A stretch of DNA of 64,000 nucleotides, from contig JAKLGJ010000002.1 in the NCBI GenBank assembly GCA_022710715.1, forward strand, positions 81,977 through 145,976, in the 5' to 3' direction. Shown here one piece after another: positions 14,297-61,900 of the stretch. Below the pieces are notes generated by a model that did not search any database, was not told the DNA's origin, and saw only the letters and a program-made list of their open reading frames with translations. This stretch comes from Candidatus Omnitrophota bacterium. Its GTDB lineage: Bacteria > Omnitrophota > Gorgyraeia > Gygaellales > Profunditerraquicolaceae. The position numbers and the translations under genes are program-made. The first letter of the stretch is position 1, and each line of letters begins with the position of its first letter.

Positions 14297-15481
14297 TTAT
14301 TCCAGATAGGTATATACCGTTCCGGAAAAATTGCGCAACACATACTTACCTTTGGCTTCGGAAAGGATGTAATTGGGTCCGACCGGGATCTTCCCTCCGC
14401 CGCCAGGCGCATCAATGACATACGTGGGAACGGCGTAACCGGACGTATGACCGCGCAGTTTCTCGATAATGTTGATCCCGGTGCTGACCGGGGTGCGGAA
14501 ATGTTGCGTTCCCCGCACCGGATCGCACTGATAAATATAATACGGGCGCACCCTTATTTTAAGCAATTCATGCACCAGCTTGCGCATGATATGCGGCCGG
14601 TCGTTGATGCCCTTTAAAAGCACGGTCTGGCTGCCCAGGGGGATGCCGGCATCGGCCAGCATTTCGCAGGCATTCCTGGTGCGGCGGGTGATCTCTTTGG
14701 GATGGTTGAAATGTATGCTCATCCACAGCGGGCCGTACTTTTTGAGCGTGGCAATCAGGCTTTCGGTAATACGCTGCGGCAGGGTAACCGGCACGCGCGT
14801 TCCCAGCCGGACAAACTCGACATGCGGGATCGCCCGCAACCGCTTGAGCAATCCGCCGAGCACTTCTTCCTCCAGGATGAGCGGATCTCCGCCGGAAATC
14901 AACACATCCCTGATCTTCTTGTTGGATTGGATGTATTCGATCGCCTTATCCCAGCGTCCGGCGCCGGGATCTGCGTGTTCCTCCTGCCCGACAATCCTTC
15001 TGCGGGTACAATGCCGGCAATACATGGCGCAGGCTTCGGTAGACAGAAGCAGCACGCGGTCAGGATAACGATGGACCAGATGGGGCGCGGGCGAATCGCT
15101 GTCTTCGCCGCAGGGATCAGCCATCTCGTGAGGGCTGACATGGAATTCATCGGCCAGCGGGATGCACTGGCGGCGGATCGGACAATGCGGATCGTCCGGA
15201 TCGATAAGCGTTGCCCAGTACGGTGTAATAGCCATGGCCATCCTGCCTTTGGCGTTCCGGATGCCTTCCTCTTCGGAAGGAGTAAGGTTCACCACCTGGC
15301 TGATCTGATCCATCTTGGTGATGCGGTTGCGCATCTGCCAGCGCCAATCTTCCCAGTCCAGAGGATTGACATCCCGGTACAGGCTGATCTGCTGATAATC
15401 CCGCCCTCGCTTGCCCGGACGTATACCGACACCATTCTCTACGAGCGTTTTCTGCTGTTCGGTGGTCATGGTGTTAGCCAT
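14297..15481 (-). CDS. kamA: L-lysine 2,3-aminomutase (radical SAM, PLP-dependent)
   Basis: Near-collinear match to Clostridium KamA: DWEDWRWQMRNRI, CAMYCRHCTRRR (CxxxCxxC), ISGGDPLIL, HFRTPVSTGINIIEKLRGHTSGYAVPTYVIDAPGGGGKIPV. Confidence 0.92.
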   Translation of the reverse strand: MANTMTTEQQKTLVENGVGIRPGKRGRDYQQISLYRDVNPLDWEDWRWQMRNRITKMDQISQVVNLTPSEEEGIRNAKGRMAMAITPYWATLIDPDDPHCPIRRQCIPLADEFHVSPHEMADPCGEDSDSPAPHLVHRYPDRVLLLSTEACAMYCRHCTRRRIVGQEEHADPGAGRWDKAIEYIQSNKKIRDVLISGGDPLILEEEVLGGLLKRLRAIPHVEFVRLGTRVPVTLPQRITESLIATLKKYGPLWMSIHFNHPKEITRRTRNACEMLADAGIPLGSQTVLLKGINDRPHIMRKLVHELLKIRVRPYYIYQCDPVRGTQHFRTPVSTGINIIEKLRGHTSGYAVPTYVIDAPGGGGKIPVGPNYILSEAKGKYVLRNFSGTVYTYLE

Positions 15482-16481
15482 TTTTCATTTTCCTCCGTTG
15501 GAAGGCATTCATCAAAATGGAATTGATCAGGTCCTCGTATTTCATTCCGGCAGCGTACACCATCAATGGGAAATTCGACTCCTTGGGATTCAATCCCGGC
15601 AACGGATTGATCTCCAGAACGTACGGGATCCCGTGCTTGTTCAGGCGGATATCGGTCCGGGAGATATCGTAACAGCCGACGGCACGGTGGGTCTTCAATG
15701 CCGTTTCTTTAACCAGGGTTTCAGTAGCCTTATCCAGCCGGGCCGGACAATGGAATGTCGGGGTCAGCCCCTTGGCTTCATCGCCCTGGAATTCTTTCAT
15801 CCGCCAGGAATAAAAAAACTCTCCGCTCTTGGCGCAGGTAGAGAAATCGATCTCGAGTATCGGCAGGATCGTCGCGGTACCGTTCTCCAGAATACCCACG
15901 GTCAGCTCCGTCCCTTCGATGAATTCCTCCACGATCATCTCCTGGTGATAGCGGCCGATCAATTCCTTGAGCCGGCGATACAACGCGGTTGCATCGCTGA
16001 CAAAATTCTCTTTCATGATCCCCTTGGCCGACCCTTCCAGGTTAGGCTTGATGATCAGAGGAAAACACATCTGCGGATCAAGGGTTTCGGTTCCTTTGAC
16101 GAACACCTGGAACCGCGGGGTCGGAATGTTGTCGGCAATGAGGATTTTCTTGGTCATAGCCTTATTCAAAGCCAGCGCCAGAGAGAACGTATCCGAACCG
16201 GTATGGGGAATGTTGAGATATTCCAGGATCGCCGGGACCTGGGACTCGCGGAATTTGCCGCGGGTGCCCTCGGCGATGTTGAAGACCATGTCTACGGGGT
16301 TATTTTTAAAAAATGAGAGCAGGTTGGGATTGTCCGCTTCTACATGCGCCACGCTGTGACCGCGCGAGCGCAAAGCGCTGGAGATGGCGTTAATCGTTTC
16401 TTCGGAGTCAAACTCCGAGAAATAATCCGGAGGTTTGCTTTCGTCTTCTTTCTTGAGATTATAGGTAAGCGCTATCTTCAT
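15474..16481 (-). CDS. D-alanine--D-alanine ligase family ATP-grasp enzyme (paralog A)
   Basis: Ddl-family blocks: FNIAEGTRGKF...YLNIPHTGSD, IIKPNLEGSAKGI, RTDIRLNKHGIPYVLEINPLPGL; 335 aa. Start overlaps the paralog B stop and its own stop overlaps the kamA start (operon). Confidence 0.8.
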   Translation of the reverse strand: MKIALTYNLKKEDESKPPDYFSEFDSEETINAISSALRSRGHSVAHVEADNPNLLSFFKNNPVDMVFNIAEGTRGKFRESQVPAILEYLNIPHTGSDTFSLALALNKAMTKKILIADNIPTPRFQVFVKGTETLDPQMCFPLIIKPNLEGSAKGIMKENFVSDATALYRRLKELIGRYHQEMIVEEFIEGTELTVGILENGTATILPILEIDFSTCAKSGEFFYSWRMKEFQGDEAKGLTPTFHCPARLDKATETLVKETALKTHRAVGCYDISRTDIRLNKHGIPYVLEINPLPGLNPKESNFPLMVYAAGMKYEDLINSILMNAFQRRKMKNG

Positions 16482-17468
16482 TTACTGTATATTGTACCGT
16501 TTTAGCGCGGCCTGGAGGATCTTTCCGACGATATCCTCGTAGGTCATGCCGACCGCCTTAGCGAACAGCGGGAAAACATCTTCGGTGGACAAAGACGGTA
16601 ACGGGTTAATTTCCAGCACATAGGGATTCCCTTTTTCGTCCACCCGGAAATCTATTCTGCCGAAATCCAGGCATTCGATGGCCTGATAGGTCTTCAGCGC
16701 CAGAGTGGAAAGCTTATGCTGTAATTTCTCCGGTATCTGCGCCGGGCATACGTATTCCAGCGTATCGCTTTTGATGTGACCGAACGTGTAAAATTTATCC
16801 TTGAGCTTGAGCTTTCCGTCGATTTTAATCTGCACGATCGGCAAGACTTCCGGCGGATCGTTACCGACGACACCGACGGTAAACTCTTCCCCCCGGATGA
16901 ATTCTTCTACCAGCGCCGGCTGCTTATACGTATTAACGACAAATTCCACCTGTTTATACAGTTCTTCTTTATTTTCCACGCGGGACGCTTCACTCAACCC
17001 CTTGGAGGAACCTTCACAGCGCGGCTTGACAAAAAGCGGGAATTTCATATGATCCAGGCCGTGCAGAGATTCCATGTTTTTCACTTCGAGAAATCTCGGG
17101 GAAGGGATATCTTCGGAAAGGAACACTTTCTTGGCCATCACCTTATCCAGCGATAACGCCAGCGTCAGAGAGTCGGACCCGACATAGGGGATATTGGCCA
17201 TCTCAAGCAGGATGGGCACCTGGGACTCGCGATTGCGACCGACAAGACCTTCGGAAATATTAAAAACGATATCCACCTTGATCTTGTCCAGCGTCTCCAG
17301 AACTTTAGCGACATTGCCGATTTTATGGACTTCGAAACCGTTCGCCTTGATCGCTTTGGCGATGACATCGATAGTACTGGGATGATCGAATTCCGCATTT
17401 GCGTCCGGAGGATCGTTTTCTTTAAAACGGTAATCGGTTTTCAGGTCGTATGTCAGCCCGACTTTCAT
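16482..17468 (-). CDS. D-alanine--D-alanine ligase family ATP-grasp enzyme (paralog B)
   Basis: Same Ddl-family blocks (FNISEGLVGRNRESQ, FVKPRCEGSSKGL, RIDFRVDEKGNPYVLEINPLPSL); 328 aa. Tandem with paralog A. Confidence 0.8.
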   Translation of the reverse strand: MKVGLTYDLKTDYRFKENDPPDANAEFDHPSTIDVIAKAIKANGFEVHKIGNVAKVLETLDKIKVDIVFNISEGLVGRNRESQVPILLEMANIPYVGSDSLTLALSLDKVMAKKVFLSEDIPSPRFLEVKNMESLHGLDHMKFPLFVKPRCEGSSKGLSEASRVENKEELYKQVEFVVNTYKQPALVEEFIRGEEFTVGVVGNDPPEVLPIVQIKIDGKLKLKDKFYTFGHIKSDTLEYVCPAQIPEKLQHKLSTLALKTYQAIECLDFGRIDFRVDEKGNPYVLEINPLPSLSTEDVFPLFAKAVGMTYEDIVGKILQAALKRYNIQ

Positions 17469-31017: not shown

Positions 31018-31506
31018 TTAAAACGCGAGTTCCCGCAGATTGGTGACGCCTTCGTAGGTCTGGATCATCTGCGGGTTATCCTTTATTTGCTGACGGACCA
31101 GCGGTTGCTCCAGATACTGTTGCAGAGCATCCAGATATTCGGCCAGGGAACCGCTCTGCTGATGCCGGTGGGCATACGGACAGTGCAGATCAAGGCTCAA
31201 GAAAACGCTCTTGCCGCAGCGATTGAGCAGAAACGGATAGAGTTGACATTCGAAAGGACGCTGGCCGTATATCCGGCAGGCGGTATCCGCAACCCGCAGA
31301 TACCGGCAATACCATATGTCCGCCGCATCATCCCGCACCAGCGGGATCTTCGATCCGATGATACCCAGACGGTCCTGTTCCGCCGCCAGAAGCGCTGGCG
31401 ACCAGGGAGAATCCTGCGCCTGGAAACGGCAACACCCCTGACACTGCATGCAGACGCCGGCCGGGATCAATTGTTTGAGCGATACTGATGCGCCGGGGCC
31501 TGTCAT
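31018..31506 (-). CDS. YkgJ-family Fe-S/zinc cluster protein (CxxCxxCC)
   Basis: CMQCQGCCR motif near the N-terminus plus downstream Cys residues typical of the UPF0153/YkgJ family; 162 aa. Confidence 0.6.
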   Translation of the reverse strand: MTGPGASVSLKQLIPAGVCMQCQGCCRFQAQDSPWSPALLAAEQDRLGIIGSKIPLVRDDAADIWYCRYLRVADTACRIYGQRPFECQLYPFLLNRCGKSVFLSLDLHCPYAHRHQQSGSLAEYLDALQQYLEQPLVRQQIKDNPQMIQTYEGVTNLRELAF

Positions 31507-31823
31507 TTGACGATGCTGCCGGTCTTAACCTGCTTGTCCGGAGACAGAACCGCCAGCGCCAGATCGTCTTGAGACGCCAGCAGCATCCCCTGGCTTTCTA
31601 CTCCCCGCAGCAGGGCGGGAGTGAGATTATCCACTATCACGATCAATTTCCCTACCAGCTCTTCTTTGGCATACGCCCGCTTGATCCCGGCAACGATCTG
31701 TTTGGTCGTTTCCCCTACTTCGACCTGCAGCACATACAGCTTATCGGCATTGGGATGGTCATTGACCTCCTTGATCCGGGCGATCTTCAATTCCACTTTC
31801 TTAAAATCCTCTATGGTAATCAT
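31503..31823 (-). CDS. tRNA-binding protein (Trbp111/CsaA family, OB-fold)
   Basis: MITIEDFKKVELKIARIKEVNDHPNADKLYVLQVEVGE...GIKRAY...LIVIVDNLTPALLRGVESQGMLLAS aligns to the MetRS C-terminal / Trbp111 tRNA-binding domain. AGGAG SD 5 nt upstream of the ATG lies within the repeat element. Confidence 0.8.
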   Translation of the reverse strand: MITIEDFKKVELKIARIKEVNDHPNADKLYVLQVEVGETTKQIVAGIKRAYAKEELVGKLIVIVDNLTPALLRGVESQGMLLASQDDLALAVLSPDKQVKTGSIVK

Positions 31824-31828
31824 ACGTT

Positions 31829-31992
31829 CTCCTTGCCTACAGAGGCAATACCCGCGCAATTCCGATCTGCGCGGGGTATACACGCAGAGGCAATACCCGC
31901 GCAATTCTCCCCGACAAAGGGGATGCCGGCCTCTTCCGATCAGGGCCGGGCACGATCTGCGCGGGGTATACACGCAGAGGCAATACCCGCGC
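31829..31992. repeat. tandem palindromic leader repeat (copy B, about 2.5 units); the same 77-nt element occurs at 41200..41276
   Basis: 31829..31905 is a near-perfect copy of 41200..41276 (TCCTTGCCTACAGAGGCAATACCCGCGCAATTCCGATCTGCGCGGGGTATACACGCAGAGGCAATACCCGCGCAATT). An extra partial unit lies at 31953..31992. Each unit contains the inverted repeat ATACCCGCGCA...TGCGCGGGGTAT. Confidence 0.85.
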
Positions 31993-32079
31993 GCTTTGAC
32001 CACGCAAGTATACCTGCGGATGAAAAAAGCGCCCTAAGCCGCTGGCGCGTCCGGTACCGCACTAACCGCACATCAACCT

Positions 32080-38284: not shown

Positions 38285-40037
38285 TGCTGGTCTCTTTGTT
38301 TGTGCTGCGTTTCTGCTCCAGCAGCAGCGCGATCTCCTGTTCTATTTTTGAGAATTCCGGGGATTTGAACACGCTGGAGTTCCATCCCCTGGTCAGCTGA
38401 CGCAGTTGCTGAAAGAAGCGCAACGCTTCTTCCTTGCTTTGAAAGCGGAATTCCTCTTCCATAATATCGTAGATGAACGCAAACACGTACTGCTGCCGTT
38501 CGGCGGAACAGGATTCATCCACGGGGTCGAAAGCATTCTGCTGCAGATAGACGAAATCGAAATACTCGCCCTTAAGATAATCCACATAATCCGCCAGAGA
38601 AGTGCCTTCTTCACCGATAACTTTCATCATCTGTGAAACGTCGCGGCTCTTTTTGAGCATCGCATGTCCGCGCACGCGATAGCGTTCCGGGATTACGCTG
38701 GGATATTTGCTCCAGCTGATCAACGGATCTATCGCCGGATACCTGCGGGCGTCCGAACGTTCGCGCGAAAGGCCGTGGAATGCGCCGACCACCTTTAACG
38801 TCGCCTGGGTGACCGGTTCTTCAAAGTTGCCTCCGGCAGGACTGACCGTGCCGCCGATAGTCACGGAACCGGTTGAGCCGTCATTAAGCCGCACCGCTCC
38901 GGCGCGCTCGTAGAAAGAAGCGATGCGCGATTCCAGATACGCGGGAAAAGCTTCTTCGCCGGGAATTTCCTCGAGCCGGCCGGACATCTCCCGCATCGCC
39001 TGCGCCCAGCGGGATGTGGAATCGGCCAGAAGCAGAACCTGTAAGCCCATCTGCCGGTAATATTCGGCAATGGTAACCGCGGTATACACGCTGGATTCGC
39101 GCGCGGCCACCGGCATGGAGCTGGTATTACAGATGATCACGGTCCGGTCGCTCAACGGTTTATGCGTACGCGGATCAATCAACTCGGGAAACGTTTTAAG
39201 CGTTTCGACCACTTCGCCGGCCCGCTCTCCGCAGGCGGCAATGATCACCACATCCGCATCGGCGTGCCGGCTGATCAACTGTTGAAGCACGGTTTTGCCC
39301 GCGCCGAACGGTCCGGGCACGCAATAGGTGCCGCCCAGGGCTACCGGGAAAAGCGAATCGATCAGACGCATTTTGGTTACCAGCGGTTGATGCGGTTTAA
39401 GTTTTTCTGCGTACGCCCGGATGGCGATTTTCACCGGCCAGTTCTGTTTTAAATACACATCTTCCTCTTTACCGGAAGAATCCCGCAGCCGGGCAATCGG
39501 TTTTTTGAGATTATAGCGTCCCAGGCCGGCAATGCTGACCACTTCCCGGATTCCCTGCAGACCGAAGGGCACCATAATGCAGTGTTTGAAGATTTTCTCC
39601 GGCACGGAACCCAGAATGTCGCCGGCGCGGACCGTATCGCCTTTTTTTGCCAGCGGAGTGAATTCCCATTCAACGTCCTGCGCCAGCGCGGTCAGATATG
39701 CTCCGCGCTTCAGGAAAAAACCGTGCTGCGCGGCGAGCGGCGGCAAAGGATTCTGCAAACCGTCGAAAATCTGGCCGAGCATTCCCGGTCCCAGCTCAAC
39801 CGACAAAAGCTCGCCGGTAAATACAACTTCGTCGCCGATCTGCAGGCCGCTGGTATTCTCATACACCTGCATCTCCGCCTTATCCGCCCGGACGCGGATG
39901 ACCTCGGCCTTGAGCGCTTCGGCGCCGTGTTGTACAAAAGCGACTTCATTCTGAATGATTACCCCGTCAACGTGAGCGGTAACCATGTTACCGGTGATCT
40001 TGACAACCCTTCCTGTTCTGTCTTTCGGCATGCTCAT
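38277..40037 (-). CDS. atpA: V-type ATP synthase subunit A (catalytic)
   Basis: P-loop [12 protein letters not shown], Walker B and the non-homologous insert typical of V/A-type A subunits; 586 aa. Confidence 0.92.
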
Positions 40038-40590: not shown

Positions 40591-41193
40591 CTAAATCCCC
40601 TTTAGCAATTCGGCGACTTTGGGCTTCAAGCTCGTTCCGATATACTCCGCCAGGGCCGTATCGGTAAAATCAAAATGGGATTTACCGTCATCGAAGCTGA
40701 TCCGGAATCCCGCCCGGATATCGGCCTGGGAACGGATTTCAAGCCCTTTCTTCAGTTCATGCTTGAGCGCGTTCAGAAAATGACCTTCCAGCCGGCTTTT
40801 ATCCTGCTCCGACAGATAAATCACCGCGCTGCTCGCTCCTTGAGCGCAATAGCCGGAGATCAGCGCGCCGATGATTTTCGACAATTCTTCGACGGACAGA
40901 ACCGCGGCGGTCTCGGCGGCAACCAGCTTCTGCAACAACGCCAGCACGTCCTGACGCAGCGTCAATAGCATATCCCTGCCCGCCTGCTGCAATGCTGCCC
41001 GGGAACTGGCCTGCATGCTGTCGATTTTCTCTTCAGCTTCATCGATCATTTTCTTAGCCTGCGCCGCAGCCTTCTGCAGGATCACCTCTGCTTTCTGCTG
41101 CGCCTGCTGCTCGATATCCCGCGCTTTCACTTCAGCAGCCTGCACGCCTTCCTGATTGATTTTTTCGATCAATTCTTTAATCTGGTCCGCCAT
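40591..41193 (-). CDS. atpE: V-type ATP synthase subunit E
   Basis: Start at internal Met (MADQIKELIEKINQEG...) with GGAG SD. N-terminal long helix plus C-terminal globular domain; 200 aa. First gene of the V-ATPase operon. Confidence 0.75.
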   Translation of the reverse strand: MADQIKELIEKINQEGVQAAEVKARDIEQQAQQKAEVILQKAAAQAKKMIDEAEEKIDSMQASSRAALQQAGRDMLLTLRQDVLALLQKLVAAETAAVLSVEELSKIIGALISGYCAQGASSAVIYLSEQDKSRLEGHFLNALKHELKKGLEIRSQADIRAGFRISFDDGKSHFDFTDTALAEYIGTSLKPKVAELLKGI

Positions 41194-41199
41194 GTTGAC

Positions 41200-41276
41200 T
41201 CCTTGCCTACAGAGGCAATACCCGCGCAATTCCGATCTGCGCGGGGTATACACGCAGAGGCAATACCCGCGCAATT
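41200..41276. repeat. palindromic leader repeat (copy A), immediately 5' of the atpE start codon
   Basis: Identical to 31829..31905 except for 1-2 positions. Contains the inverted repeat ATACCCGCGCA/TGCGCGGGGTAT twice and supplies the SD (reverse complement of TCC...). Confidence 0.85.
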
Positions 41277-41339
41277 TGGCCACAGGGCCACACTAACGCA
41301 ATTCCTTATTAGCGTTAGGTGCGATCTGCGCCGGGAGTA

Positions 41340-42026
41340 TCATTTCATCAGTCTTTTAACCGCTTCAAGCGGATTGGCCGCTTCCAGTATGGGGCGACCT
41401 ACAACGATATACTGTGCCCCGGCGGCAAATGCCGTCGCTGCCGTTGCCACCCGCTTCTGGTCGCCGGTATCCGCGCCTTGCGGCCGTATGCCCGGCGTGA
41501 CGATCACGAACGCTTTCCCGCAGGCTTTTCGCACTGCTGCCGCCTCGTGCACGGAACAAACAACCCCGTCCAGACCGGCCTTCCTGGCCAGCCGGGCGCG
41601 CTGCACTACGGTCCGGCGCGTATCTGCGCCGGCTTTATCGCTGGTCAGCACCGTGATTCCCAACAACAAAGGCTTCTTGACTTTCGCCGCCGCAGCTTCT
41701 TCTTTCGCTGCCTGCGCCGCCCGTACCAGCATTTCTTCGCCCCCGGCAGTATGCAGCGAGACCATCGCTACGTTCAACCGGGTGGCCTGACGCACAGCGC
41801 CGGCTACGGTATTGGGAATATCGTGAAATTTAAGGTCCAGAAACACCCGGCTTCCTTTTTCGCGCACCAGATCAACGATCTTCGGCCCATAAGCGGTAAA
41901 GAGCACCGGCCCGATCTTAACCATCCCAATCGCTGAAGCAAGCATATTCATAAAGCGCCGGGCTTGCCTGATATCCTTGACATCCAGGGCGAGAATAAGT
42001 CGTTTGCGCAGAGAACGCTGGTTCAT
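41340..42026 (-). CDS. pyrF: orotidine 5'-phosphate decarboxylase
   Basis: LILALDV...DLKFHDIPNTV...GITVLTS blocks with the catalytic Asp/Lys of OMPdecase; 228 aa. Confidence 0.9.
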   Translation of the reverse strand: MNQRSLRKRLILALDVKDIRQARRFMNMLASAIGMVKIGPVLFTAYGPKIVDLVREKGSRVFLDLKFHDIPNTVAGAVRQATRLNVAMVSLHTAGGEEMLVRAAQAAKEEAAAAKVKKPLLLGITVLTSDKAGADTRRTVVQRARLARKAGLDGVVCSVHEAAAVRKACGKAFVIVTPGIRPQGADTGDQKRVATAATAFAAGAQYIVVGRPILEAANPLEAVKRLMK

Positions 42027-51095: not shown

Positions 51096-51167
51096 TGCGC
51101 CTGACAGGAGTCGAACCTGTACCACCAGCTCCGGAGGCTAGTGCGCTATCCATTGCGCTACAGGCGC
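51096..51167 (-). tRNA. tRNA-Arg (anticodon CCG)
   Basis: Minus strand: GCGCCTG TA GCGC AATGGATA GCGC A CTAGC CTCCGGA GCTGG TGGT ACAGG TTCGACT CCTGT CAGGCGC A. Confidence 0.85.
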
Positions 51168-51265
51168 GTAATTTACTTAGTGCGGCAGTGTCCCCGATGG
51201 TTTGATTTGCCGAACACAGTGAGGCAAATCAGTCGGGGGCAGGCGCGTAATTTACTTAGTGCGGC
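51161..51265. repeat. 26-nt direct repeat (51161..51186 and 51240..51265) duplicating the 5' end of tRNA-Arg plus its 18-nt upstream leader
   Basis: CAGGCGCGTAATTTACTTAGTGCGGC occurs twice, 79 nt apart. The first copy includes the first 7 nt of the tRNA. A small hairpin (GATTTGCC...GGCAAATC) sits between the copies. Confidence 0.7.
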
Positions 51266-51278
51266 CGTATCCCGATCG

Positions 51279-55760: not shown

Positions 55761-55912
55761 AAAAAAAAACCAACCGGTTAAGGTTGGTTACTGTGGTTCG
55801 CCTGAGATTGGTCCATTCTTTTTGTGCATGTATCCGCCTTGCCTGCCTCGCGGGGCAGGCTTAAAGGTTATCTCGATTTGTAATAGTGTAGCACAAAAAA
55901 GAGTTTTGTCAA
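55761..55912 (-). promoter_or_regulatory. pyr operon leader: sigma70-like promoter, putative PyrR-binding stem-loop and Rho-independent attenuator terminator
   Basis: On the minus strand: TTGACA (55912..55907), 16-nt spacer, TACACT (55890..55885). Stem-loop GCCTGCCCCGCGAGGCAGGCAAGG (about 55860..55837) resembles the PyrR binding loop (..GAGGC.GGCAAGG). Terminator AACCAACCTTAACCGGTTGGTT + T9 (55789..55761) ends 10 nt before the pyrR ATG. Confidence 0.5.
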
Positions 55913-58900
55913 GCCGGAATCTGCGTTTCCAGCCAGATCAGCGTTTCTTTCAGGGATGTATCTGTAGCAATCCCCTGGGTTTCCTCCATTTTCAACTCCT
56001 GGGCCAACAACGCTAAAATCTCCTGCCGGGCCTGCGCAATACGCCCCTGCTGATAACACTGCTGCACATAACAGATGATCTCCTGCGGCTTAAGCAACCT
56101 GCCCTGCGCCAGGATAACCTGCAAATCCTGCGCCTGTAGCGCTGCCGCCGGATTCAAGGCCACAGGAGCCGCGATCCAGGCAGGCGCCGGTGAGGAACCG
56201 GAAACCGGCAGGCTGCGCAGATCGATACCGCCGGTTTCATCCGGCTTATGCTCGCGCGCCGCCGGCTCGAGCGGCCGGGATTGCGCGGCCTGCTGCGCTT
56301 CGTACTCCCGCACCATGGCTTCAATCCCCCGTTCCTGCTCTTCGACATTCATCTGGATGGCTTTCATTCGTTCGCGGATAACCGCCAGGAGAGGAAGGAC
56401 CTGCTCCTGAAAAGCGGTTAACGATTCGGCGATCCGGCCGCTGTTTTTCACGTCCTGCGCGTCGCGATCCCAGAACGCCTTGAACAACAAGTGTTCCTGG
56501 CTGAAAGTAAGCTTTTGATTAAGGCATACTTCGCTTAAAAGCTTCAGGGCTTGCAGCCGTGTCAGCGGGCCTGCCGTTTCCAATAAAACAGCGAGTACCG
56601 ATAACGATTGGTCGATGATCATATTGTCCCAGCTTTTCAAGCCGGCGGCAAGATCAGACATCTGTTCAGCGGCGGCGGACAACTCGATTCCCGGCTTATC
56701 TTTCAAAGCGGTGATGATCAGGCTGCGCGCTTCCTGCGCCACCTCGCGCGAATTGATATACTCCAACCCCAGCGCTATAAGCATCTCCCTGGGCAGTTCT
56801 ATGCGCTGTTTCGTTTCCACCAGCTGCGCTTTCTCCCGTATTTCATGCAGGGCGATCGCTTTGTCTAAAGCCCGGCCCGGCCGTTCAAGATCATGCAATG
56901 CGGCTTTCAATTTCATCGCCTCGACCGTTCCCGAGACCTCCCGGCCGAAATTGTCGATGATCTCGATCAACCGCTGTGCTGTGCCGCCGTCGCCGGCGAT
57001 CACTTCCGCTTTGAATGACGGGATATCCTTCACCGCAGTCGCATCTCCTTCCTTGAGATCGAGCTCGCCGCCCAGGGAATCCAGGTAACGGGTCACCCGG
57101 CTGGGCGGGACTTTCAAATGGAACGATTCTCCTTTGGCCGCTCTGGCCAGGACCCTCACCCCCAGCGCGGCGGAAACTTCCCGGGTCATCGCGTTCGCTG
57201 CGGCATCCTGCACTTCTTTTAATTCATCGGTGTTAGTATAGACTTTTTCTTTCACATACACGAATTCCCCGCTTTCCGTAAACACTCCGTGCAGCAGAAC
57301 GAACCCGATCACGTTCTCTTCCCCGTCCCGCAGCAGGATGATCAATTCCTGGGCGTCGGAGATAAAACTCATCAGGCTGTGTTTGTAGTTGCCGGAATAA
57401 TCGCTTCTCTGGCAATTCCCCGAGCCGCTGGCGCCGTACCGGCCGATCTTCAGGGTGTCTTTAAGATCGAAGCTGATCTCCGCGGATACTTTTGCCGGGA
57501 CTGCCGCGGTCAGCGATTCGTCGGTCAAAGCTTTTTGCGCGGCAGCCAGCAATGATTTAAGCATTCCGCGGGACTCGTTAATGAAATTGCGCGGTTTTTC
57601 CCGCGCGGCGAATTCCTGATCCAGGACAGCCAGATCGTCGATCATCCGCGATACGGTCAATTCTTTTTGCACGGCAGGATCTCTTTCGTAGGATTCGTAG
57701 AGCCGGATGATCTCCTGCCACTGCTCCCCGCGATCCATAGAAGCCAGGTTCTCGATCCGGCCGGCGATCTCCAGGACTTTTTGCACCAATATCCCATGAT
57801 CCTGCGCCTGCTGCCTGATCCGCTGCAGTTCCCGCAAGCGCCGCAGGGCTTCCCCCCGCGCCCGGTTCTCCCGTTTAGACAGCTTTTTCAGTCCCATTAA
57901 AACCTGGATATCCTTCTGATCGAGCGCCGCTTTCAACGCAGGACTTAATCCTGCCGGATCGGTTTTCTGCCCGGCCAGGAATTCGTCCGTTTCCTGCTCC
58001 AGCACCGCGATCCTGGCCTGATACGCTTTATCCGCTTCCGAAATCACCATTTCGCGCTCCGCGGAATGCTGCTGGTAATTTTGCATTGTGGTCTCGAAAT
58101 ATTGCCGGTACGCAGCGCGGTTGCTGAAATCTTCCTCGGCTTCGGCAGTCAATGATTCCAGATTCTCATAGGCGTCGCGCACCGCCTGCGGCGCCTGCGA
58201 CGCGGCATTGGCCTGGCTGCGCTTATAGTCCCGCACTCCCTGCCTGCCTCCGGTAAAATAAGCGATCACCAGGTCCCGCAGGATGGCGTAAGCCGCGGAT
58301 CTGCGGGGATAGTTCTGCTGGAAATTAAACATATCCATCATGAACTCGGTGTCCGCCAGAGCGGCCCGGGCGTCGGGATGAACCGGCCCCATCTCGAAAT
58401 CGAAGAACTTTTTATCCCCGATCCTGCTCTCCAGCCGGGAGATGAGCGCCGCGGAAAAATCGCCGGATTGCGCCGCGGCGTTGATTTCCTCGGCGGACAA
58501 TACTTTTTTCTGCTGCATCGCCGCAGCCGTAGCCAGGAAATTCAATCCGTCGACCAGGGCCTGGCCCTGCCCGGAAGATCTGCGGATGATCGTTTCCGCG
58601 GTTTCCCGGTATCGACTGTTGTCTTTCAACCAGTTCAGGGCCCGGAACAGGGCTACCCGGCGCTGATCATTGCCCCCCCTGATGGTTTCGACGATTTTAT
58701 CGGTGACCGCGGCATCGCTGAATCCCGCTCTCGAAAGGATATAGGCTTCGAAAACAGTCAGCCCCTGCACCGGCTCCTGGGACAAAAAGCCCTCGATCGG
58801 CTCCTTGAAGGTCGGGCTCATTGCGCCCAGAAGCCGCAATGACAAAGATTTTTCCCGGGCATTGATCTTCCCGGTCAGCCAGGCCAGCTCCACCAGGTCC

Positions 58901-61900
58901 TCCTTGCGCATTGACCAGCTCCAGGTGATTATTTCCAGCAAACGGCTTAAAGCTTCTCCTGCGGAAGCGCCGGGACGCAGCGAAGAGATCACCGCATTTG
59001 CCGCGGGCATATGTTCCGGGCTTACTGCCAGCCATTTCAAACTCTTATCGTAAAACTGCTTGCGCTCGACATCGTTGAGCGGCCGCAAAACCTCTCTCAA
59101 TACGGATTGGGCCTGCCCGGAAAATCCCAGGCTTAAAACGAATTCCAGGGCAAATCCCAGCTCGCGATTGGCAAAATCGAATTCCAGGATTTGATGCGCA
59201 AATTTGTTTGCCGGCGGGGAATAACGGAACACGTCGGTGTTGTCCGGGAGAGTCTTACTGGAAGCAATATCCGCGAGAATCGCCGCGACCTGCTCCTGCT
59301 CGTTTTCTTCGATCCGGCCTAATAAGAAAAGCAGCTCGCTCAAATAATTTTTCTTGAACCGGACAAGACAATCTCCCAGCGTGTCAAAAGCATTGGCCAG
59401 ATCCGCTTCCGGACGCAATTGAGTGATCAATGCGTTGAATATTTCGGCTTGTTCCGGATGCTGCCCGATTGCCAGGAATGCGACCCAGCATAAACCAGCC
59501 TGGTGATACGGCGATGATTTAGAACGCAAAGCTTGCCGGGCTTTGGCCCGGACCGCATCGGACAAAGGCAGATGAGCAAGCGTGAATTCCAGCCAGAATT
59601 GAAATTCCCGCTCTTGCGGCTGGAAAGTAAGAATTTCGCGCACCAGACGCTGGCGGTCGGCAACGGATTCCCTGCGGATGACCCGGATAATTTGCCCGAA
59701 CACCAGACTATCCCCGTATTCATATCGTTGCGCATCCTCGTCGGGCATTTCTCCCAACAGAATGAGCATGCGGAACCAGGATTCATGATGATCCGCGTCC
59801 ATTTCCAGCAAATCCTCATAATCAACAGACAGGCCGTCAACAATGTTGCCCAGGTCCCGCGTTGATTGCCGGCCCAATATATTGACGATCTCCAGGGCCG
59901 GCGGATTACGCTGAAGCCAGATCAGGCTCTGGATCAATTCTTTTCTTTGCTGGCGGTTCCTGGCCTGGATCGACCGGACCAGATTGTCCCGGGCTTGCGC
60001 TTCAAGATCGATCGAGGACAACAAATAGGCTTCGACCAGGCTCACGCCTTGCGCGGTGACGCGCGCGGCCAGAACTGCGCCGCTTAACGGCGCGGGGAAC
60101 CAACGATCGTCTTTATACCCTTTGAATACAGCCAGCTGGCTCAACGTAAGCTTGATCTGCGTTTCCGGCATCCCGCGTCCGCGCAATGCCGCGGTCCAGG
60201 CTTCCCGGTCATAAAAAACCAGCCCCTGGATAAAATCCGGCTTATCCGCGGACAAACGCACCAGCGAATCTATCCCGCACTCCGCGATAAAAGGCTTAAG
60301 CCAGTCCATCCACCGCGCCAGCTCCTGCATTGAAGAGCTTCCTTTTAATTGCACAGCTTCGATAAAACCTGTTTGCATAAACAGCCGCTGGTATTCTTCG
60401 GCGGTTTTCATGATTGTATCGGAATAGCGATCGAAGTCGTTAAACTGCAGGGACCCGCCGTTTTCCAGAAGAACCAGCTGCCGGCTTTTCACCAGGATCC
60501 TGCCCGCAAATAGGATCGCGGTTGGCAGATTGTTCGCGGGAAGCGGCATACGGACCATTTCGTCGCCTGCCGCCATCCGCTCTTCCTGCGGCACATCCAG
60601 CAATGCCTGGATCAACGCATAGAGGAAACGCACATCGTAATCCTCTTTGCGGTTGTCCAGGAATTCGTACAACGCCGGCTCTATGCCCATGGCTTGAAGC
60701 TGCCGTAAAAATTCTTCGTTCGATTTCAACAGATCCGTGCCGGTCAGCCTGGGCAAAGCGGCTGTCGTCTGCCCCGCGGCGGGCATGGTCGTGGGTAACG
60801 AAAATCCTCCGGTCGTCCCGAAAGGCGCGGCGCCGCCGTCCGGACCGTCGCCGCTCATTACATCCGCAGTGGCAGTGGATACGCGGCGGGACTCTTCGCC
60901 TTTGATCGTACGCAGCAATGCTTCCAGAATGCCGCGCAATCTTCCTTTATTTACCGCCGCCTCGGACAAGGACAACTCGAATATTCCCGGCGCGGGAATA
61001 AATTTCGCCGGAGCTATTTCCATATCCGGAAGAATATGTTTTCCTGCGGATAGCTCTTCGGGCAGGGTGAAATCGGTTCTGGCGAGCAGCGCGGTTAACC
61101 CCGACAGATCGGAAGCGTGCGGATTTTTAAGCTGGATCAGTCGCGTATCAAGCAGCGCTCCCGTGTCGGGGAATGCCGCCCCGAAAAACGCCGTATCGAA
61201 AAATATCTTATCCGCCGATCCGATCCCGCTAAAAACAGGCAACGCTTCCTGCGACCACAGCGTCCAGCCCGGAGCGGTTTCTTGCGGCGCAGCCAGCACG
61301 CTAAAATCAATACCCTGGACGTTATTATCGGTAACCCCGAAGCTGCCGCCTTCGGCAAATCCGGAAGTGCCGCCGGCGGAGAATCCGCTTGACCCCTTTG
61401 CGCCCTGATTGCCTGCCGGGAGCTCCGGAGCATCGGGCAATTCGTCGAGCATTTCATCCGCGATCGCCGCCAGAATTTTTTTATAGAGCAGCCGGTTGAC
61501 AAAATATTCCGTCAGCAGTCGGGGATCCTGCTTCATCCGGCGGTTGCCCACGCTGATTTCCTGATTTCTATCCGCCCATTCCCGGCCGGCCCGTATTTTT
61601 TGCTCACCCAGCTGAATCCGGGCGAATTGAAATGTGCTCACGGGAACATCGGCATCCCGGTGCTGATGTTCCAGGTAAAATATAGGATATTCCTCAAAAC
61701 CCCCTTTAGTCGGGTCGAACAAAGGCGAGGTCGATCCCTGCTTGATCGAATCCAGTTGAGTATGCTTATCGAAAAGCTCGCGGTCAGGCGTTTCCCGGAA
61801 AAGATAGATATCCGCACCGGCAACCGTACCGTCGACCGAATCCGGAGAGAGACGCATCCCGCCGTATTTCGCGACCAGGATGATCGTACCCAGCAGCGAA

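What the first reader, a model, noticed from the sequence alone, without database searches (positions are those of the whole stretch)
31829..31992. Near-identical 77-nt palindromic 5'-leader shared by two unrelated genes (atpE of the V-ATPase operon and a CsaA/Trbp111-like tRNA-binding gene)
The segments 41200..41276 and 31829..31905 are essentially identical; an extra partial unit lies at 31953..31992. Both end 4-5 nt before the ATG of a minus-strand gene, so the repeat itself provides the Shine-Dalgarno (..GGCAAGGAG). Each unit has two copies of a hairpin-forming inverted repeat (GCGCGGGTAT / ATACCCCGCGC) plus a small stem TTGCC-TCTGTA-GGCAA just before the SD. This looks like a shared cis-regulatory RNA (translational control, sRNA/protein target, thermosensor) or a REP/MITE-like element that is tolerated only in leaders. 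It explains the shared spurious peptide RGYCLCVYTPRRSELRGYCLC in two track ORFs.
Basis: seen in the sequence. Interest (0 to 1): 0.58.

Follow-up and report, generated by a model that had tools for sequence, protein, structure and literature searches.

The report
Gene leader recently copied to second gene
A 78-base stretch with hairpins and a ribosome-binding site sits letter-for-letter in front of two unrelated genes because the leader of one gene was very recently copied in front of the other; this is a clear but ordinary case of regulatory DNA being reused.

Summary
Window 31829-31906 and 41199-41276 are 100% identical over 78 nt, and a further 40-nt exact partial unit lies at 31953-31992. 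Each copy ends in AAGGAG, 5 nt before the ATG of a minus-strand gene (a PF01588 tRNA-binding protein; V-ATPase subunit E). The organism is an uncultured Candidatus Omnitrophota bacterium from anaerobic digesters.

Comparison with relatives settles the origin:
- A 97.5%-identical strain (L041) carries the window's whole atpE-type leader (121 nt, one mismatch) in front of its tRNA-binding gene.
- Two assemblies of a 94-96% relative and two outgroups have no spacer at pyrF|atpE (overlap, 9 nt or 30 nt).

So the atpE leader is a recent copy of the tRNA-binding gene's leader, placed 9.4 kb away at a formerly tight operon junction.

The proximal two-hairpin-plus-SD architecture persists in an ~80% relative (L031) through compensatory changes. 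The SD is predicted to be accessible, and no Rfam family matches. No further copy was found in 71 kb of this genome, and none in GTDB representatives, a JGI subset or IMG/VR.

Best reading: a structured 5' leader (probably promoter plus hairpins plus RBS) that has been propagated, i.e. a "putative mobile promoter" event. It is not an ancient shared riboswitch. A high-copy REP family is not excluded, because a genome-wide count was impossible.

The parts
31829..31906 (-). Shared 78-nt cassette, copy in front of the tRNA-binding-protein gene. Sense order: A1 (TTGCGCGGGTATTGCCTCTG), B1 (GTATACCCCGCGCAGATCG), GAATT, A2, small hairpin UUGCCU-CUGU-AGGCAA, SD AAGGAG (31829-31834).
41199..41276 (-). 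Shared 78-nt cassette, copy in front of atpE (V-ATPase subunit E). It is 100% identical to 31829-31906; SD at 41199-41204.
31824..31828 (-). 5-nt SD-to-ATG spacer AACGT (AACGA in sister strain L041/L042).
41194..41198 (-). 5-nt SD-to-ATG spacer TCAAC. It differs both from the donor (AACGT/AACGA) and from the element-free relatives (CATATT, CGTATT, GACGCT).
31953..31996 (-). Distal A0-B0 unit of the tRNA_bind leader. 31953-31992 is a 40-nt exact copy of A1-B1.
31907..31952 (-). 46-nt 'type 1' spacer between B0 and A1 of the tRNA_bind leader. It contains a degenerate B-like string (31937-31950) and small hairpins. It has no counterpart in L041 or at atpE.
41277..41319 (-). 'Type 2' spacer of the atpE leader (hairpin CTAACGC...GCGTTAG, then GGCC..GGCC). 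It is identical to the spacer in the tRNA_bind leader of sister strain L041.
41320..41339 (-). Degenerate B0' module (CCCGGCGCAGATCG at 41322-41335) directly after the pyrF stop codon (41340-41342). This is the 5' end of the ~141 nt that the element-free relative L030 lacks.
32023..32048 (-). Terminator-like hairpin GCGCC...GGCGC plus U6, downstream of the response-regulator/GGDEF gene and upstream of the leader. It is conserved in L031, and L038 has a stronger one. It implies that the leader must contain the promoter of the tRNA_bind operon (inference).
31503..31823 (-). Gene for a 106-aa PF01588 tRNA-binding-domain protein, annotated by sources as methionine--tRNA ligase subunit beta. It is the first gene of a tightly packed run of genes.
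40591..41193 (-). atpE, first gene of the V-type ATPase operon (E, DUF2764, A, B, D, I, K).

Best explanation
What it is: the repeat is the structured 5' leader of the tRNA-binding-protein operon of an uncultured Omnitrophota bacterium. It is built from two mutually complementary modules, A and B, that have been reiterated with a 45-nt period. It ends in a small hairpin and a strong Shine-Dalgarno sequence.

What happened: very recently, within strain-level divergence, about 141 nt of this leader (B0, spacer, A1-B1-A2, SD) were copied 9.4 kb away. They landed at the junction between pyrF and atpE, where these genes overlap or lie at most 30 nt apart in relatives. The copy replaced the native ribosome-binding region of atpE. 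The copying mechanism (illegitimate or microhomology-mediated recombination, or template switching) is inferred, not shown.

How it probably works: the cassette supplies an exposed AAGGAG SD at optimal spacing. It also supplies 5' hairpins, probably for mRNA stabilisation or for presenting the SD. At its home locus it follows a terminator, so it most likely carries a promoter as well. The V-ATPase operon would thereby gain expression signals independent of the pyrimidine operon. Operationally this is a 'putative mobile promoter' / leader-propagation event.
For: Shown:
- Exact 78-nt identity, in the same orientation and with the same 5-nt register to the ATG.
- L041, 97.5% identical to the window over 1523 nt of the tRNA_bind region, has in front of its tRNA_bind gene a leader that matches the window's atpE leader at 120 of 121 positions, 'type 2' spacer included. 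It matches the window's own tRNA_bind leader only over the proximal 78 nt.
- Empty site at atpE: in L030 (94-96% nt identity) pyrF overlaps atpE. An independent JGI protein, P0245, translates the same overlap.
- The outgroups L034/L035 and L037 have 30-nt and 9-nt spacers without the element.
- At the tRNA_bind locus the spacer grows along the lineage: 15 nt (L033), 83 nt (L038), 170 nt (L031, with B- and A-like modules), 256 nt (window).
- In L031, 15 of the 16 base pairs of the B1:A2 hairpin and the pre-SD hairpin are kept, 5 of them through changes on both sides. Pairing is 98% of cells, against 31-53% when the partners are slid.
- SD accessibility (0.39 and 0.62) lies within the range of 24 other genes, 0.18-0.85.
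- AAGGAG plus 5-7 nt is the usual RBS in this genome, and almost all other gene junctions are 30 nt or shorter.
- The case meets the published operational definition of putative mobile promoters (PMC3488235).

Inferred: promoter content, from the terminator-like hairpin plus U-run just upstream of the leader in the window, L031 and L038.
Against: - No sigma-70-like promoter is detectable inside the cassette: the best candidate, TTGCGC-N18-TATACC, scores only 7/12 and was not reported by the scan. Omnitrophota promoter consensus is unknown.
- There are no transcript data.
- The exact breakpoints, the origin of the TCAAC spacer and the origin of the 'type 1' spacer now present in the window's own tRNA_bind leader are unexplained. 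They may point to further family members.
- Structure conservation rests on a single diverged sequence, and part of it is a GC-only stretch that can pair in several registers.
- Only 71 kb of the genome could be searched.
Confidence: 0.65

Rival explanations
1. A shared riboregulator. The leader would be an RNA operator (for a protein, an sRNA, temperature or tRNA status), and the identity of the two copies would be maintained because the two operons are co-regulated through it.
For: - Same orientation and register to the ATG at both loci.
- Two near-isoenergetic, mutually exclusive hairpins, A1:B1 and B1:A2.
- Hairpins conserved with compensatory changes in L031.
- The proximal 67 nt fold better than shuffles, z about -2.
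Against: - The atpE copy is absent in a 94-96% relative and in the outgroups, so co-regulation is at most a few percent divergence old.
- 100% identity fits recency rather than constraint. L041 versus the window shows 1 mismatch in 121 nt, against about 3 expected from the flanks.
- The SD is not sequestered.
- The whole 78-mer is not exceptionally stable, z = -0.95.
- No Rfam hit.
- No hairpin is followed by a U-run, which rules out a terminator/antiterminator switch.
Confidence: 0.15
2. A member of a dispersed REP/REPIN- or MITE-like repeat family, mobilised in trans, that happens to sit in these two spacers. The SD at its end would be incidental or selected after insertion.
For: - Palindromic about 34-nt unit, extragenic.
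- Inverted B and A modules separated by about 45-nt spacers of unrelated sequence (type 1 versus type 2), as described for REPINs (PMC8049555).
- Local reiteration of units.
- Short-read contigs break inside it.
- The origin of the type 1 spacer and of TCAAC is unexplained.
Against: - Only two loci in 71 kb by exact, fuzzy, blastn-short and covariance-model searches.
- About ten other spacers of 80 nt or more in the window lack it.
- Both copies have the same orientation and register to an ATG.
- The donor of the atpE copy is identified as the tRNA_bind leader.
- No terminal inverted repeats or target-site duplication at the insertion.
- No transposase or RAYT-type Pfam hit in any window ORF scanned.
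- No ORF anywhere in 5.8 billion proteins carries its translation.
- The 18-mer core gives only chance hits in 185,579 species genomes, a JGI subset and IMG/VR.
Confidence: 0.12
3. A DNA-level operator/promoter array. The A boxes, direct repeats 45 bp apart, and the A/B palindromes would be binding sites for a transcription factor, and the apparent RNA structure would be a by-product of palindromic operators.
For: - Repeated 20-nt boxes at fixed spacing.
- A promoter is needed downstream of the terminator.
- Palindromes that change in concert between the window and L031 could reflect co-evolving half-sites.
Against: - Arms of 11 bp and a 6-bp stem that changes at 4 of 6 positions between close relatives are unusual for operator half-sites and typical of RNA stems.
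- No candidate regulator gene is adjacent to either locus apart from a response-regulator/GGDEF protein that lacks a DNA-binding domain.
- This cannot be tested with these tools.
Confidence: 0.1
4. An assembly or chimera artefact that duplicated a segment.
For: Short-read contigs end inside the repeat.
Against: Both copies are identical in ENA, JGI, NCBI and two Logan assemblies. Single contigs of 914 kb and 235 kb span both loci.
Confidence: 0.01

Closest known systems
Putative mobile promoters / promoter propagation (Matus-Garcia, Nijveen & van Passel 2012, PMC3488235)
   Same: - A non-coding segment of 50 nt or more, at 80% identity or more, lies within about 100-150 nt upstream of the start codons of non-homologous genes.
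- The upstream neighbours are also non-homologous.
- It is interpreted as recent mobilisation of regulatory DNA.
- Family size 2 is the commonest case there.
   Different: - Here donor, recipient and empty site can all be identified from strains 95-98% identical.
- The copy runs right up to the ATG and replaces the RBS at an operon-internal junction.
- Promoter activity is inferred only.
REP / BIME / REPIN elements (RAYT-associated repetitive extragenic palindromes; PMC8049555 and my own knowledge)
   Same: - Short GC-rich imperfect palindromes between genes.
- Inverted modules separated by a variable spacer.
- Local amplification of units.
- Known REP effects on mRNA stability would fit the hairpins.
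   Different: - REPs occur in tens to hundreds of copies, typically at 3' ends or between convergent genes, in both orientations, and with a RAYT gene.
- Here there are two loci in 71 kb, both 5' of genes and ending in an SD. No RAYT was seen in the window.
MITEs that carry expression signals, e.g. Neisseria Correia/CREE elements (my own knowledge; CREE is mentioned in PMC3488235)
   Same: A small non-autonomous sequence that can place promoter and processing signals in front of genes.
   Different: No terminal inverted repeats and no target-site duplication. The copy has a defined chromosomal donor 9.4 kb away.
Structured 5'-UTR cis-regulators (riboswitches, ribosomal-protein or aaRS leaders, RNA thermometers)
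   Same: Conserved stems immediately 5' of the SD of a translation-related gene, and alternative pairings.
   Different: - No Rfam match.
- The SD is predicted to be open.
- No terminator stem.
- Conservation is limited to one narrow clade.
- The second copy is a recent duplicate.

Membership tests
Putative mobile promoter (PMP) family, sensu PMC3488235 | Alignment of more than 50 nt at 80% identity or more between regions within about 100-150 nt upstream of two translation starts | tested here: met
   78 nt, 100% identity, ending 5 nt before each ATG
Putative mobile promoter (PMP) family, sensu PMC3488235 | Downstream CDSs and upstream CDSs of the two copies do not align (no whole-gene duplication) | tested here: met
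   Downstream genes are PF01588 versus PF01991; upstream genes are Response_reg+GGDEF versus OMPdecase. blastn of the loci against the window finds only the 78-mer as a second hit.
Putative mobile promoter (PMP) family, sensu PMC3488235 | The segment actually contains a promoter | not testable with these tools
   This is inferred only, from the terminator-like site upstream. No sigma-70 consensus match lies inside the cassette.
REP / REPIN | Short imperfect palindrome, extragenic; REPIN = two inverted REPs with a variable spacer | tested here: met
   A:B arms of 11 bp with one bulge. The arrangement is B0, a spacer of about 45 nt, then A1, and the spacer sequences are unrelated at the two loci.
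REP / REPIN | Tens to hundreds of copies dispersed through the genome | tested here: inconclusive
   Only two loci in 71 kb of this genome. The rest of the genome could not be reached, and the public scans returned chance hits only.
REP / REPIN | Associated RAYT (IS200/IS605-like Y1) transposase gene | tested here: inconclusive
   No such Pfam hit among the window ORFs scanned or the precomputed hits. The gene could lie elsewhere in the genome.
MITE | Terminal inverted repeats and a target-site duplication flanking the insertion | tested here: not met
   The ends of the insertion, relative to the empty site in L030, are CCCGGCGCAGATCG... and ...GGCAAGGAGTCAAC. They are not inverted copies of each other and no duplication is seen; about 11 native nt are replaced.
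Known cis-regulatory RNA family (Rfam 15) | Covariance-model match at or near the gathering score | tested here: not met
   Only tRNAs pass the gathering score in the window. The best leader hits have E = 0.26-8 to unrelated families.
Conserved structured 5' leader (generic) | Presence in orthologous leaders of relatives, with covariation | tested here: inconclusive
   tRNA_bind locus: present in L041 and L031, with 5 double-sided changes in 16 pairs, but absent in L033, L038 and L032. atpE locus: absent in all 4 relatives. There is only one diverged sequence, and part of it is GC-only.
SD-sequestering translational switch / thermometer | SD paired in the dominant structure | tested here: not met
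   Mean unpaired probability of positions -14..-4 is 0.62 (tRNA_bind) and 0.39 (atpE), within the 0.18-0.85 range of 24 other genes.
Intrinsic terminator / attenuator | GC-rich hairpin followed by a U-run inside the element | tested here: not met
   No U-run follows A1:B1, B1:A2 or the small hairpin. The only such site lies upstream, at 32023-32048.

The most novel reading that the evidence does not exclude
The cassette could be a trans-recognised RNA operator, for example bound by the tRNA-binding protein it precedes or by another factor that senses translation status. Its capture by the V-ATPase operon would then have wired proton/sodium pumping to that signal. Alternatively, it could be a self-propagating RBS/promoter cassette that inserts preferentially right at start codons. 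For the second idea: the 14 nt 5' of the atpE copy resemble the native pre-ATG sequence of the empty site at 10 of 14 positions, and GGGGAG precedes the tRNA_bind copy.
Probability: 0.08. Interest if true: 0.65.

Novelty: new member of a known kind. Interest (0 to 1): 0.33.

Why it matters
This is an unusually clean natural snapshot of regulatory rewiring. Donor, recipient and empty site can all be recovered from strains 95-98% identical. The event split a tight operon junction (pyrF|atpE) and gave the V-ATPase operon a new RBS and probably its own promoter. The organism belongs to an uncultured phylum (Omnitrophota) whose expression signals are essentially unknown.

In practice, the leader gives a candidate promoter/5'-UTR module for this phylum. 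It also explains why short-read assemblies of this organism break at these two points. It does not reveal a new class of element.

Tried and rejected
1. Genome-wide count. All were single, in unrelated taxa, with about 25% flank identity, so they are chance hits. The host genome is evidently not in those collections, although JGI 3300009776 holds it.

2. Finding hidden copies through spurious ORFs. A concatenate of all six reading frames of the cassette, searched against 5.8 billion proteins, gave no hit. The in-frame 60-aa leader translation, searched against 1.84 billion representatives, gave one unrelated tandem-repeat protein.

3. Extending the window. The look-up with the 2663-aa ORF failed because that ORF runs off the window. 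The left end was extended by 7 kb and holds no copy.

4. Covariance model of the proximal leader. With filters off, over the window and 61 kb of related loci, only the training loci and their own distal modules match.

5. Other searches that found nothing.
- Tandem Repeats Finder reports nothing, because there are only 1.7 copies of the 45-nt unit.
- The sigma-70 promoter scan gives one hit, whose -10 hexamer overlaps the ATG; I rejected it.
- I inspected sigma-54 and integron attC motifs by eye and rejected them (own reading of the sequence).
- Rfam at E up to 10 gives only noise.

6. The idea that a third, unseen copy donated the atpE leader was dropped once L041 showed that the donor type is the tRNA_bind leader itself.

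Full report
**Observation**

Window 31829-31906 and 41199-41276 are identical over 78 nt. A third, 40-nt exact partial unit lies at 31953-31992. Nothing comparable occurs in shuffled sequence.

Read on the minus (gene) strand, the cassette runs in this order:
- A1 (TTGCGCGGGTATTGCCTCTG)
- B1 (GTATACCCCGCGCAGATCG)
- GAATT
- A2
- a small hairpin, UUGCCU-CUGU-AGGCAA
- GGAG, then 5 nt, then ATG

A and B are mutually complementary. B1 can therefore pair with either A1 (-19.5 kcal/mol) or A2 (-17.0 kcal/mol), but not with both.

The downstream genes are a 106-aa PF01588 tRNA-binding protein and V-ATPase subunit E. The upstream genes are a response-regulator/GGDEF protein and pyrF. The sequence is identical in five independent assemblies, two of which span both copies on one contig. 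It is therefore real.

**Organism and context**

Homologues of both proteins are from Candidatus Omnitrophota. The same strain recurs in anaerobic-digester metagenomes.

The region is a long co-directional run of very tightly packed genes: a pyrimidine cluster, then pyrF, then V-ATPase E-DUF2764-A-B-D-I-K, two tRNAs, CheC, RR-GGDEF, then tRNA_bind and its followers. Nearly all junctions are 30 nt or shorter. The 146-nt and 256-nt spacers that hold the repeat are the exceptions, apart from a spacer that holds two tRNAs. AAGGAG at 5-7 nt is the normal RBS in this genome. No transposase, integrase or RAYT-type domain was found in any window ORF.

**Anatomy beyond the 78-mer**

- tRNA_bind locus: terminator-like hairpin plus U6 (32023-32048), A0-B0, a 46-nt 'type 1' spacer, then the cassette.
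- atpE locus: pyrF stop codon, a degenerate B0', a ~43-nt 'type 2' spacer, then the cassette.

**Comparative evidence (the decisive part)**

(a) atpE side.
- L030 is 94-96% identical in nucleotides. Its pyrF overlaps atpE, and the ~141-nt leader is missing.
- An independent JGI gene call, P0245, translates the same overlap.
- The more distant syntenic relatives have 30-nt (L034/L035) and 9-nt (L037) spacers with ordinary SDs.
- The ancestral state is therefore no leader, and the window's atpE leader is an insertion younger than about 5% divergence.

(b) tRNA_bind side.
- Spacers are 15 nt (L033, syntenic) and 83 nt (L038, terminator plus SD).
- L031 (87% aa identity) has 170 nt, with a terminator and B- and A-like modules.
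- The window has 256 nt.

(c) Sister strain L041.
- It is 97.5% identical over 1523 nt.
- In front of its tRNA_bind gene it carries a leader that matches the window's atpE leader at 120 of 121 positions, type 2 spacer included.
- It matches the window's own tRNA_bind leader only over the proximal 78 nt.
- The atpE leader is therefore a copy of the tRNA_bind leader as it existed in the recent common ancestor.
- The window's tRNA_bind leader has since exchanged its spacer (type 1), or lost a unit.

**Structure**

- The whole 78-mer is not unusually stable (z = -0.95).
- The proximal 67 nt fold into B1:A2 plus the pre-SD hairpin, with z about -2.
- On a MAFFT alignment that was not fitted to structure, L031 keeps 15 of these 16 pairs, 5 of them through double-sided changes. 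The pre-SD hairpin becomes UCCGCC-CGGC-GGCGGG. Pairing is 98% of cells, against 31-53% for slid partners.
- This suggests a functional RNA (or single-stranded DNA) structure. It rests on one diverged sequence, part of which is GC-only and can pair in other registers.
- The SD is predicted to be as accessible as in other genes.
- No hairpin is followed by a U-run.
- Rfam has no match.

**Distribution**

Exact, fuzzy, blastn-short and covariance-model searches (filters off) find no other copy in the window or in 7 kb beyond its left end. They find none in the relatives' loci other than the orthologous leaders. About ten other spacers of 80 nt or more in the window lack the element.

The 18-mer core gives only chance hits in 185,579 species-representative genomes, a JGI metagenome subset and IMG/VR. 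No predicted protein in two very large collections carries its translation. The true genome-wide count could not be obtained.

**Interpretation**

Shown:
- A lineage-restricted leader of the tRNA_bind operon, built of reiterated A/B modules, was recently duplicated onto the start of atpE.
- The copy replaced the native RBS region there and split a formerly overlapping junction.

Inferred:
- At its home locus the leader follows a terminator-like site that is conserved in L031 and L038, and it heads a long run of translationally coupled genes. It therefore probably contains their promoter.
- The copy would then give the V-ATPase operon its own promoter, 5' hairpins and a strong SD.

This meets the published operational criteria for a putative mobile promoter (PMC3488235).

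It does not hold as an explanation for why two unrelated genes share the sequence. The REP/MITE idea is not excluded but is disfavoured, for four reasons:
- the copy number is low;
- orientation and register to the ATG are fixed;
- the donor is identified;
- there are no terminal inverted repeats, target-site duplication or transposase.

**Unexplained**

- The source of the type 1 spacer.
- The TCAAC spacer at atpE.
- The higher divergence of the distal B0'.
- A 10/14 resemblance between the 14 nt 5' of the atpE cassette and the native pre-ATG sequence of the empty site. I estimate p at about 0.1 if any position in the 141 nt is allowed.

**Verdict**

It is a new member of a known kind (promoter/leader propagation) and of modest interest.

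Noticed in passing
window 51161-51197 and 51240-51276 (minus strand), next to tRNA-Arg 51096-51167: A ~37-nt near-exact duplication (ATCGGG..GCCGCACTAAGTAAATTACGCGCCTG). The proximal copy includes the first 7 nt of tRNA-Arg. This could be a duplicated tRNA promoter or an att-like scar of an integration event, i.e. a second example of duplicated upstream DNA in this window.
   Followed up: partly
window 55909-64000 (minus strand): A giant ORF that runs off the window end: there is no stop between 63900 and 63999, so it exceeds 2696 aa. It has no Pfam hit. The ORF listing shows it as starting at ATG 63900, which is why the contig look-up with that start failed.
   Followed up: partly
window 39822-39888 vs L030 2602/2603: The 94-96% relative L030 lacks 67 nt inside the N-terminal part of atpA, and its gene call starts later. 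This is either a frameshifting deletion (pseudogene) or an assembly error in that metagenome contig.
   Followed up: no
window 32023-32048; L031 591-618; L038 1159-1185: A terminator-like hairpin plus U-run lies between the RR-GGDEF gene and the tRNA-binding gene in three relatives, but not in L033 (15-nt spacer). In L038 it sits only 11 nt before the SD, which leaves no obvious room for a promoter.
   Followed up: partly
L042 position 1 (Logan SRR12684589 contig start) and L014/L015/L020/L021/L016 contig starts: Short-read contigs begin inside the cassette. L042 starts at CAGATCGG.., a point that would branch only if a B-A-B arrangement with an extra full 45-nt unit exists in that sample. This hints at unit-number variation between strains.
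   Followed up: no
window 15474-17465 and 14297-15478 (minus strand): Two adjacent paralogous D-Ala-D-Ala-ligase-like ATP-grasp genes lie next to a lysine-2,3-aminomutase-like radical SAM gene. This may be a small beta-lysine/peptide-ligation cluster, unrelated to the finding.
   Followed up: no
whole window: 45 of about 50 long ORFs are on the minus strand, and cumulative GC skew falls monotonically. The window lies within one replichore, with strong co-orientation of genes.
   Followed up: no
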